64,000 nt of DNA. Origin: Candidatus Hodarchaeota archaeon (GTDB lineage: Archaea; Asgardarchaeota; Lokiarchaeia; Sigyniarchaeales; SOKP01). The position numbers and the translations under genes were made by a program. The DNA lies in NCBI GenBank assembly GCA_048887225.1, contig JBHLJY010000006.1, positions 78,238-142,237 of the forward strand. The letters are read 5' to 3'. Of this stretch, positions 12,602 to 13,954 are shown piece after piece. Each line of letters begins with the position of its first letter. Positions within the stretch are counted from its first letter, which is position 1. Below the pieces are notes generated by a model that saw nothing but the letters and a program-made list of their open reading frames with translations, did not search any database and was not told where the DNA came from.

Positions 12602-13954
12602 GGCTTCTTCAACCCCTCTTCATTTGCCATTACAATAACGGCTGCATAAGCGGCTCCTGGACCTCCGATCGAATGAGCAATGGACCGACCTTTTTCAATT
12701 GTGACTTGGTGTTTGCCAGCATCTCCTCTAATCTGAAGAGCGGCCTCTCCTGTGCTCATTATACCAGTCGCGCCCACAGCATGTCCACAGCCAATTAAGC
12801 CTCCCGAAGGACAGCATGGCAATTCACCATTTAGCCAAGGACCTTCGCCGGGCTTTTCGAAAGAATTTTCAATCCAAGGACCGCCTTCTCCGAATGGTAC
12901 AAAGCCTAATTCTTCATAAGAAATTACTTCTTGACCGCTAAACGCATCGTGGAGCTCTGCAACATCGATTTGTTCCTTAATCTTGTTGTAGTCGAGCCCT
13001 GCCATTTTATAAGCTGCTTTAGCAGCTTCAATGTTTGAATAAAGCCGACCAATGCTCTCTCTGTTTCCGATAAAACAATCTGTATTTGCAGCAGCGACTC
13101 CGGTTATCCATGTAGGCTTTTCCACGCCGAGTTCTTTTACTTTTTGTTCGTTTGCAAGGATTAATGCGGCAGAAGCCTCGGAATAAAGACAGCAATCCAG
13201 GAGTTTGAAGGGATAACAGATAATTCTTGAGTACATAACGTCTTCGACGGTTACCTTCATTGGCGATTGAGCCTTTGGGTTGAGCAGAGCGTTCCCATGA
13301 TTTTTAATGGAAACCATAGCCATATAAGCCAAAAGTTGAAAATATTCAACTGATTGTTTGCTCTTCGGTCGGGTTTCCAAATTCTTTGTAATGTGCATTT
13401 ACCATAGAAACATATGAAGATGCCGCCATCATGCCCATAGGATATTTACGGAATATCGCGAAATGCGAATTAAATTCTTTCATAAGTCATATCCGCAGAA
13501 TAGGCAATGGCATTTAATACTTCTGGTGTTGTAACTCCTGTTTGCTAACGCTTTAAACTAAATATTTACAAGATTCGTCATAACAGTCGTTACATTTCTC
13601 CAAACCAATGCAGAGACACAAATCCGACAATCCAGATGCAACTTCAGCATAAGCCATTCTCACAGTATAACCTCCCGTTGCTCCGCCCGACGCAATTCTC
13701 GTGCCAGGTTTGTCATTCATGCCAAGATAACTATTAGTAAATATATCGGGCATGAATTGGCGTTCAAAAAGCTCATTATAAATTCCATAAACCGTGGACT
13801 GCAAATCTTTATGTATAATCTCTGCCCCGTTTTTATTTGCATCATCAAGAGCCAATCTAGTGGCATCAAACGCCAGCTCAAAATACGTTTTATCAAGATA
13901 CCTTGCTCTAAAAGGAGTAATGCCTACTCCGATTATCGCAACTCTATTTGGCAT
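12598..13954 (-). CDS. SCP2-type thiolase-fold protein, 4 exons: join(13954..13574, 13544..13479, 13444..13358, 13323..12598), 419 aa
   Basis: Removing three short inserts gives a continuous frame: ...GLEKCNDCYDE|QTGVTTPEVLNAIAYSADMTYE|YPMGMMAASSYVSMVNAHYKEFGNPTEEQ|MAMVSIKNHGNALLNPKAQ...; VAIIGVG, ELHDAF and SGGLIGCGHAVGATG motifs. Confidence 0.9.
13324..13357 (-). other. BHB intron 3 in thiolase mRNA (34 nt)
   Basis: Central helix GAGC/GCUU, bulges AA^A and AU^A, intron stem CAA/UUG plus AGUUGAA/UUCAACU; in-frame TGA; excision joins CAA|ATG. Confidence 0.88.
13445..13478 (-). other. BHB intron 2 in thiolase mRNA (34 nt)
   Basis: Central helix UAUG/CGUA, bulges AA^A and AA^U, intron stem GAAU/AUUC plus UCGC/GCGA; in-frame TAA; excision joins GAA|TAT. 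Confidence 0.88.
13545..13573 (-). other. BHB intron 1 in thiolase mRNA (29 nt)
   Basis: Central helix GACG/CGUU, bulges AA^U and AG^C, intron stem CUU/AAG plus UAAA/UUUA; in-frame TAA; excision joins GAA|CAA. Confidence 0.88.

What the first reader, a model, noticed from the sequence alone, without database searches (positions are those of the whole stretch)
13324..13357. Intron 3 (34 nt): BHB capped by a perfect 7-bp hairpin
Minus-strand RNA reads A-[GAGC]-AA^A-CAA-UC-AGUUGAA-UAUU-UUCAACU-U-UUG-[GCUU]-AU^A-UGG. It contains an in-frame TGA. Excision restores the typical thiolase segment PTEEQMA.VS.KNH.NA..NP.AQ. The outer helix is weak, which implies an endonuclease tolerant of relaxed BHB forms.
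Basis: seen in the sequence. Interest (0 to 1): 0.85.

Follow-up and report, generated by a model that had tools for sequence, protein, structure and literature searches.

The report
tRNA-type mini-intron in Asgard thiolase gene
A 34-base insert with a stop codon breaks an otherwise healthy thiolase-like gene of a Loki-type Asgard archaeon; it has the RNA shape that the tRNA-splicing enzyme cuts, so the messenger RNA is very probably spliced, which the papers I could search show inside only one archaeal coding gene (cbf5).

Summary
Minus-strand 13357..13324 is a 34-nt insert between codons 178 and 179 of a thiolase-like gene (13954..12598). It carries an in-frame TGA and a perfect 7-bp hairpin.

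[quoted passage not shown] Cutting at the marked sites restores ...NPTEEQ|MAMVSIKNHG..., colinear with intronless orthologs. Free folding gives the same shape (z = -2.95). Shuffled inserts reach it 0.3% of the time.

Two more inserts (13573..13545, 13478..13445) obey the same rule. Removing all three gives a 418-codon frame with dN/dS 0.02-0.04, as among intronless orthologs. Of 87 distinct orthologs from Promethearchaeota genomes, 16 carry 24 such inserts at 10 positions, with compensatory changes.

Intron 3 was found only in this genome; I found no donor copy. The genome encodes a two-subunit EndA whose catalytic subunit has the loop linked to broad specificity, and one RtcB gene that carries a 29-nt BHB insert itself.

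No RNA evidence could be obtained, so splicing is inferred. This scan has already noted the same kind of intron many times, in this and other Asgard genomes. I found no paper reporting it.

The parts
12598..13954 (-). Thiolase-superfamily gene (4 exons, 3 mini-introns). The spliced frame is 418 codons plus a stop.
   Evidence: Hits Thiolase_N and Thiolase_C_1, and NCBIfam 'thiolase domain-containing protein' (below the curated cut-offs). Colinear with the 419-aa intronless ortholog L002.
13324..13357 (-). Intron 3 (the finding): 34 nt, phase 0, between codons Q178 and M179.
13360..13363 (-). Central helix H, 5' strand GAGC (exon 3).
   Evidence: Pairs 4/4 with GCUU at 13329-13326.
13357..13359 (-). 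5' bulge AA|A. The predicted cut is between 13358 and 13357.
   Evidence: Unpaired in the MFE and centroid folds.
13330..13356 (-). Inner helix h': CAA/UUG, internal loop UC/U, then the perfect 7-bp hairpin AGUUGAA-UAUU-UUCAACU. Contains the in-frame TGA at 13348-13346.
13326..13329 (-). Central helix H, 3' strand GCUU (intron).
13323..13325 (-). 3' loop AU|A. The predicted cut is between 13324 and 13323. It faces the unpaired AA at 13365-13364, so this side is relaxed.
13304..13322 (-). 3' strand of the offset outer helix (UGG, then GGUUUC). It pairs with CCG at 13368-13366 and GAAACC at 13377-13372.
13545..13573 (-). Intron 1: 29 nt, H GACG/CGUU, bulges AA|U and AG|C.
   Evidence: Compensatory C-G versus U-A against the same-site inserts of L080, L086 and L099.
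13445..13478 (-). Intron 2: 34 nt, H UAUG/CGUA, bulges AA|A and AA|U.
12104..12601 (-). Downstream DUF35-type gene (ChsH2-like zinc ribbon plus OB fold). Its start overlaps the thiolase stop (ATGA), the usual partner arrangement.

Best explanation
13357..13324 is a bulge-helix-bulge (archaeal, tRNA-type) intron inside the coding sequence of a thiolase-like gene of a Promethearchaeota (Loki-type Asgard) archaeon. The proposed mechanism has four steps. (1) The gene is transcribed with its three mini-introns (inferred). (2) Around intron 3 the pre-mRNA folds so that exon GAGC pairs with intron GCUU, flanked by the 3-nt loops AAA and AUA and stabilised by the CAA/UUG helix plus the 7-bp hairpin. 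This fold is shown in silico. [quoted passage not shown] (4) RtcB joins the exons and probably circularises the 34-nt intron (inferred). Only the spliced mRNA encodes the full 418-aa protein. Unspliced RNA stops at the TGA four codons into the intron, or earlier, in intron 1. The intron is species-specific. It was most likely gained on the terminal branch leading to this genome, together with introns 1 and 2.
For: 1. Geometry. The central helix is 4/4, both loops are 3 nt, and the inner helix is present exactly at the one cut pair that restores ortholog colinearity. Free MFE and centroid folds both give the BHB, z -2.95. The shuffle probability is 0.003 for this intron and about 0.004 for each of the other two.
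2. Gene health. Excising the three inserts gives a 1257-nt open frame. dN/dS against orthologs is 0.024-0.037, equal to the 0.035-0.037 between intronless orthologs. There are no other lesions. The start of the downstream partner gene overlaps the stop.
3. Family behaviour. 16 of 87 distinct orthologs carry 24 inserts of 26-35 nt at 10 positions. 19 of the 24 have a 4/4 central helix at the frame-restoring cut and the other 5 have 3/4. Site E shows 3 pairs with changes on both sides and 94% of cells paired, against 19-50% when the pairing partner is slid. Site A shows an exon-intron compensatory C-G to U-A change.
4. Machinery. EndA alpha has Y119/H150/K181 and the loop residues K59-P-R61, which align to K44/R46 of the A. 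pernix crenarchaeal-specific loop. EndA beta has the catalytic His replaced by Ser (PMC3241643, PMC5829648). RtcB is present.
5. A busy BHB system. ARAGORN finds only 32 tRNAs, 15 of them with introns. The rtcB gene carries the same kind of insert.
Against: There is no RNA-level evidence. Intron 3 has no homolog elsewhere, so no covariation test is possible for this intron itself. The 3' splice site lies in a 2x3 internal loop, not a canonical bulge. The genome holds about 14 thiolase-like paralogs (at most 40% identical), so losing this copy might be tolerated. dS to the nearest ortholog is saturated (about 1.6), so dN/dS cannot exclude a very recent inactivation.
Confidence: 0.85

Rival explanations
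1. The gene is a recently dead pseudogene. Three short hairpin-forming inserts broke one of many thiolase paralogs and are not removed.
For: Intron 3 is unique to this genome. There are about 14 thiolase-like paralogs in the genome. No RNA data are available.
Against: All three inserts have BHB geometry exactly at the frame-restoring cuts. The per-insert shuffle probability is 0.003-0.004, which is about 4e-8 jointly if they are independent. dN/dS is 0.02-0.04 with no other lesion. Inserts of the same type are conserved with compensatory changes in orthologs from other genera.
Confidence: 0.07
2. Translational bypassing: the ribosome hops over the insert, as in phage T4 gene 60 or the mitochondrial 'byp' elements.
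For: A short hairpin insert with a stop codon soon after the break.
Against: There are no matching take-off and landing codons. The take-off codon is CAA (GAA for introns 1 and 2), but the three bases before the resumption point are TAT, TAG and AAA (read directly). The BHB rule explains every boundary; a hop rule explains none.
Confidence: 0.02
3. Assembly or binning artefact: the insert is not in the organism's DNA.
For: The genome is a 49-contig assembly, and intron 3 is seen in no other genome.
Against: An artefact would not produce a structured 34-nt insert that obeys the BHB rule. Similar inserts occur in independent assemblies from many studies.
Confidence: 0.02
4. EndA cuts at the BHB, but as a decay or regulatory cleavage without productive ligation. 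The locus would then yield only fragments or a small circular RNA.
For: BHB cleavage of non-tRNA substrates is known for rRNA processing (PMC7714728). No ligation evidence exists here.
Against: Exact restoration of the frame at three sites, together with purifying selection on all four exons, would be unexplained.
Confidence: 0.03

Closest known systems
BHB intron in the cbf5 (pseudouridine synthase) pre-mRNA of Desulfurococcales and Sulfolobales (Watanabe 2002; Yoshinari 2006; Yokobori 2009, PMC2738675)
   Same: A short EndA-type intron inside an archaeal coding sequence. The cleavage motif is often relaxed. The host has a hetero-oligomeric EndA. Gain and loss are lineage-specific.
   Different: A different gene (a metabolic thiolase-like gene, not cbf5) and a different phylum (Asgard, not Crenarchaeota). 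There are three introns in one gene. This intron is confined to one species. Splicing is not shown experimentally here.
Non-canonical BHB introns of archaeal tRNA genes, including the heavily interrupted tRNA genes of Asgard archaea (bioRxiv 10.64898/2026.10.13.758758; Marck and Grosjean 2003, from my own knowledge)
   Same: The same motif (4-bp helix, 3-nt bulges, cut after the second bulge base), a similar size range, the same predicted enzymes, and patchy gain and loss.
   Different: The host RNA is an mRNA. [quoted passage not shown] The product must keep a reading frame.
Translational bypass elements (T4 gene 60; mitochondrial byps of Magnusiomyces; from my own knowledge)
   Same: A short hairpin insert with a stop codon inside an otherwise intact ORF.
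   Different: There is no take-off/landing codon pair. The boundaries follow the BHB rule instead.

Membership tests
Archaeal BHB (EndA-type) intron | 4-bp central helix between the two cut sites | tested here: met
   GAGC/GCUU (G-U, A-U, G-C, C-G). Present in the free MFE and centroid folds.
Archaeal BHB (EndA-type) intron | Two 3-nt bulges on opposite strands, each directly 3' of a strand of the central helix, flanked by helices h and h' | tested here: inconclusive
   The 5' bulge AAA and inner helix h' are canonical. The 3' AUA is unpaired but faces 2 unpaired nt (AA), and the outer helix CCG/UGG is offset. This is a relaxed form, close to HBh'.
Archaeal BHB (EndA-type) intron | Cutting after the second base of each bulge yields a functional joined product | tested here: met
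   The joined sequence GAGCAA|ATGGCU restores a frame colinear with intronless orthologs. It is the only 4/4 cut pair that does so.
Archaeal BHB (EndA-type) intron | The host encodes a splicing endonuclease able to cut relaxed motifs, and an RtcB ligase | tested here: met
   EndA alpha at G000:C1:186656-187261 has the triad and the K59-P-R61 loop. EndA beta at C3:60977-61582 has His replaced by Ser. RtcB is on C13 (PMC3241643, PMC5829648).
Archaeal BHB (EndA-type) intron | Excision and exon ligation observed in RNA | not testable with these tools
The junction pattern is absent from the metagenome contigs. The exact-protein look-up found nothing.
Archaeal BHB (EndA-type) intron | Structure conserved through compensatory change in homologs | tested here: inconclusive
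   Intron 3 itself has no homolog. The feature is met for sister inserts of the same gene family at sites E and A.
cbf5 pre-mRNA intron family | Located in the cbf5 gene of Crenarchaeota | tested here: not met
   The host gene belongs to the thiolase superfamily and the relatives are Promethearchaeota genomes. It works like that family but is not a member.

The most novel reading that the evidence does not exclude
Intron gain in Asgard messenger RNAs may be ongoing. One lineage acquired three separate BHB introns in a single metabolic gene after splitting from its nearest sampled congener, whose ortholog has no intron. No donor copy was found in this genome or in the 153 other genomes of the order that were searched. 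This suggests the introns arise de novo, by a hairpin inserting next to exon sequence that can already form the central helix. Supporting hints: 5' exons end in AA at 6 of 10 insertion positions, and the 3' end of intron 3 nearly repeats the codons that follow it. If so, the closest archaeal relatives of eukaryotes would have a protein-enzyme mRNA-splicing layer with a measurable rate of intron birth.
Probability: 0.35. Interest if true: 0.85.

Novelty: new member of a known kind. Interest (0 to 1): 0.72.

Why it matters
In the papers I could search, splicing of an archaeal coding sequence by the tRNA-splicing enzymes is documented only for cbf5 in Crenarchaeota. Here a metabolic gene of an Asgard archaeon, the group closest to eukaryotes, needs three such splicing events to be translated.

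If confirmed in RNA, three things follow:
- Gene prediction in Asgard genomes systematically breaks or truncates such genes.
- mRNA splicing by EndA and RtcB is routine in this lineage. The ligase gene itself carries an intron.
- Intron gain and loss in mRNAs can be studied in a prokaryote where transcription and translation are thought to be coupled. That bears on ideas about why eukaryotes separated the two processes.

Tried and rejected
- Junction search. The exact spliced junction (30 nt) gave 0 hits in metagenome contigs, and so did an intron pattern with a free hairpin. These collections may leave out records of the window's own genome or one very near it.
- Exact look-up of the neighbouring DUF35 protein, to find other contigs: not on record.
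- Genome-wide census of coding-sequence introns by BHB geometry plus ORF merging. Real counts equalled decoy counts (10860 vs 11002). A frame-shift control gave 1371 vs 1306 and 1369, and adding hairpin energy did not separate them. Gene junctions swamp the signal, so no count is claimed. The parallel-pairing decoy for longer helices was not comparable and is discarded.
- Other split genes. One census candidate (7228-7265, minus strand) lies inside a continuous 528-codon ORF and is not an intron. The 'TAA inside' a paralog at G000:C6:74684-75352 is the boundary between two tandem thiolase genes, not an intron.
- Donor search for intron 3. No other stretch longer than 14 nt (one imperfect 22-nt match, E >= 0.2) matches it in the genome, and no copy with up to 3 mismatches exists in 153 other genomes of the order.
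- Alternative in-frame splice pairs with a 4/4 helix (lengths 31, 34, 40). All were rejected: they lack the inner helix and give products that are not colinear with orthologs.
- Translational bypass. Rejected because there are no take-off and landing codon pairs.

Full report
**What is there.** On the minus strand, 13954..12598 encodes a thiolase-superfamily protein. It hits Thiolase_N and Thiolase_C_1, and its best NCBIfam hits are 'thiolase domain-containing protein', all below the curated cut-offs. The gene is followed, with an ATGA overlap, by the usual DUF35-type zinc-ribbon/OB partner gene at 12601..12104. The frame is broken three times. Alignment to orthologs from related genomes places the breaks at three short inserts: 13573..13545 (29 nt), 13478..13445 (34 nt) and 13357..13324 (34 nt). 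The last is the finding. Removing the three gives a 1257-nt open frame, colinear residue for residue with the 419-aa intronless ortholog L002, which is 96% identical over the C-terminal 241 residues.

**Checking the observation.**
- GAGC, 13363-13360
- AA|A, 13359-13357
- CAA, UC
- AGUUGAA, UAUU, UUCAACU (a perfect 7-bp stem with a 4-nt loop)
- U, UUG
- GCUU, 13329-13326
- AU|A, 13325-13323
- UGG

The upstream frame runs into a TGA at 13348-13346. I enumerated all cut pairs near the insert that give a 4/4 central helix. Only 13358|13357 with 13324|13323 restores ortholog colinearity (NPTEEQ|MAMVSIKNHGNALLNPKAQ) and also has an inner helix.

Unconstrained folding of 13377-13304 returns exactly this BHB as both the MFE and the centroid structure: -18.3 kcal/mol, against -10.0 +/- 2.8 for dinucleotide shuffles, z -2.95. 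I shuffled the insert 200,000 times while keeping the exons. A 4/4 helix at a frame-restoring cut appeared in 4.6% of shuffles, and with at least 3 bp of inner helix in 0.3%. Introns 1 and 2 pass the same test, at 0.35% and 0.39%.

An outer helix does exist: CCG/UGG, extended by GAAACC/GGUUUC. It is displaced by two unpaired A residues, so the 3' splice site sits in a 2x3 internal loop. That makes this a relaxed BHB on the 3' side and a canonical one on the 5' side.

**Is the gene alive?** dN/dS of the spliced sequence against three intronless orthologs is 0.024-0.037. Among those orthologs it is 0.035-0.037. Splitting the distances over the three-taxon tree by hand gives about 0.02 for the branch leading to this genome. 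There is no other frameshift or stop. dS is saturated, so a very recent inactivation cannot be excluded by this test alone. Such an inactivation would, however, need three independent lesions that each mimic a BHB at exactly the right cut sites.

**Relatives.** The orthologs come from genome assemblies labelled Promethearchaeota or Promethearchaeia, that is, Loki-type Asgard archaea. In 98 ortholog loci (87 distinct sequences), 16 orthologs carry 24 inserts of 26-35 nt at 10 positions. This is a lower bound, because the locus search favours uninterrupted matches.
- 19 of the 24 inserts have a 4/4 central helix at the cut pair that restores the protein, and the other 5 have 3/4.
- Some are fully canonical. 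At site F, CUUCU-CUGG-ACA...CCAG-UCA-AGAAG has the outer helix directly adjoining the central helix.
- At site E, 8 nt downstream of intron 3, four distinct homologous inserts show 3 pairs with changes on both sides. 94% of cells are paired, against 19-50% when the partner is slid.
- At the site of intron 1, the synonymous exon change GAC/GAU co-varies with the intron (GACG/CGUU versus GAUG/CAUU).

These inserts therefore behave as structured RNAs whose shape, not sequence, is kept.

**Intron 3 is a singleton.** A degenerate pattern for an insert at this site matched only this genome among 154 genomes of the order. The pattern is not exhaustive for diverged orthologs. The intron sequence with up to 3 mismatches is likewise found nowhere else. 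Within the genome, nothing longer than 14 nt (one imperfect 22-nt match, E >= 0.2) matches it. In the gene tree, the window's gene is sister to the intronless L002, and the next outgroups are also intronless. All three introns are therefore most simply explained as gains on the terminal branch.

By contrast, same-site inserts that are clearly homologous (sites E, F, B, A) occur in distant clades. That implies either many losses or lateral spread by recombination. I did not resolve which.

**Machinery.** The genome has two 201-aa EndA paralogs.
- One aligns to the catalytic alpha subunit of the Aeropyrum pernix heterotetramer (E 5e-35). It keeps Tyr119, His150 and Lys181. His150 aligns to His133, the residue mutated in PDB entry 3AJV. 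It also keeps K59-P-R61, which aligns to K44/R46 of the crenarchaeal-specific loop. That loop and its Lys44 were shown experimentally to confer cleavage of relaxed and mis-positioned motifs (PMC3241643).
- The other paralog has Ser in place of the catalytic His, so it is a structural beta subunit.

RtcB is present as a single gene, which is itself split by a 29-nt insert (C13:33458-33486). That insert has H UUGG/CCAA, bulges AU|A and AA|A, and a 9-bp inner helix. Removing it restores the conserved GGVGYDINCG motif. ARAGORN finds only 32 tRNAs in this 98%-complete genome, 15 of them with introns. This agrees with the heavily interrupted tRNA genes reported for Asgard archaea (bioRxiv 10.64898/2026.10.13.758758).

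**Mechanism.**
- Shown here in silico: the fold, the exact frame restoration, selection on the exons, structural conservation in sister introns, and the presence of the enzymes.
- Inferred: transcription through the intron; EndA cleavage after the second base of each loop, leaving 2',3'-cyclic phosphate and 5'-OH ends (established EndA chemistry, from my own knowledge); RtcB ligation; and release of the intron, probably as a circle.

**Rivals.**
- A pseudogene hit by hairpin insertions is the main rival, at about 7%.
- Ribosomal bypass fails because no intron has matching take-off and landing codons.
- An assembly artefact cannot explain the rule-obeying structure, nor the same kind of insert in many independent assemblies.
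- Cleavage without ligation would leave the frame restoration and the selection on all exons unexplained.

**Known or new?** Across six full-text searches, the only experimentally supported archaeal coding-sequence BHB intron is the one in cbf5. Yokobori et al. state that there was no confirmation for genes other than cbf5 (PMC2738675). I found no paper describing such introns in Asgard protein genes. The library lacks most subscription journals, so this is not proof that none exists.

Earlier notes of this scan, which are AI notes and not independent evidence, describe the same kind of intron in several other genes of this genome (uL11, acs, a cold-shock protein gene, hdrB and others) and in rtcB of other Asgard genomes. 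They also say that no spliced RNA has yet been seen. My own checks of the thiolase gene and of this genome's rtcB agree with them. I therefore file intron 3 as a new member of a known kind, the EndA-type intron in an mRNA. It is notable for being one of three in a single gene, species-specific, and in an Asgard archaeon.

**Limits.** There are no RNA or read-level data. There is no homolog of intron 3 itself. The census attempt failed. The function of this thiolase-like protein is not assigned beyond the superfamily.

Noticed in passing
G000:C13:33313-34649 (outside the window); insert at C13:33458-33486: The genome's only RtcB (RNA-splicing ligase) gene is itself split by a 29-nt BHB insert (H UUGG/CCAA, bulges AU|A and AA|A, 9-bp inner helix). 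Removing it restores the conserved GGVGYDINCG motif. The ligase would therefore have to join its own mRNA.
   Followed up: partly
window 13331-13315 (minus strand): The last 8 nt of intron 3 (UGGCUUAU) nearly repeat the codons that follow the junction (AUGGCUAUG; relatives have AUGGCNUAU, Met-Ala-Tyr). This could be a local duplication at the birth of the intron, or just the result of pairing constraints. Not resolved.
   Followed up: partly
Loci L007, L017, L056, L098 (site E); L044, L067, L071, L080 (site F); L011, L018, L090 (site B): Clearly homologous inserts at the same codon position occur in distant clades of the thiolase gene tree, while close relatives lack them. This implies either many independent losses or lateral spread by recombination.
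   Followed up: partly
Whole genome G000: ARAGORN finds only 32 tRNA genes in a 98%-complete genome, 15 of them with introns. Many tRNA genes are probably too interrupted to be detected.
   Followed up: no
Ten insert positions in the thiolase orthologs: The 5' exon ends in AA at 6 of the 10 insert positions (GACGAA|, GAGCAA|, GAACAA|, TATGAA|, TGGGAA|). The exon context of intron 3 (GAGCAA|A) recurs at site A+3 in L098, with the same H pair GAGC/GCUU. This may reflect an insertion-site or enzyme preference.
   Followed up: no
L050 (DATKTP010000175.1): A contig carrying a 91%-identical ortholog of this Asgard gene is labelled as a bacterial 'Candidatus Deferrimicrobium' genome bin. It is probably mis-binned.
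   Followed up: no
G000:C6:74200-76500 (just upstream of the window): Tandem thiolase-like paralogs sit about 3 kb before the window. The genome has about 14 thiolase-superfamily genes.
   Followed up: partly
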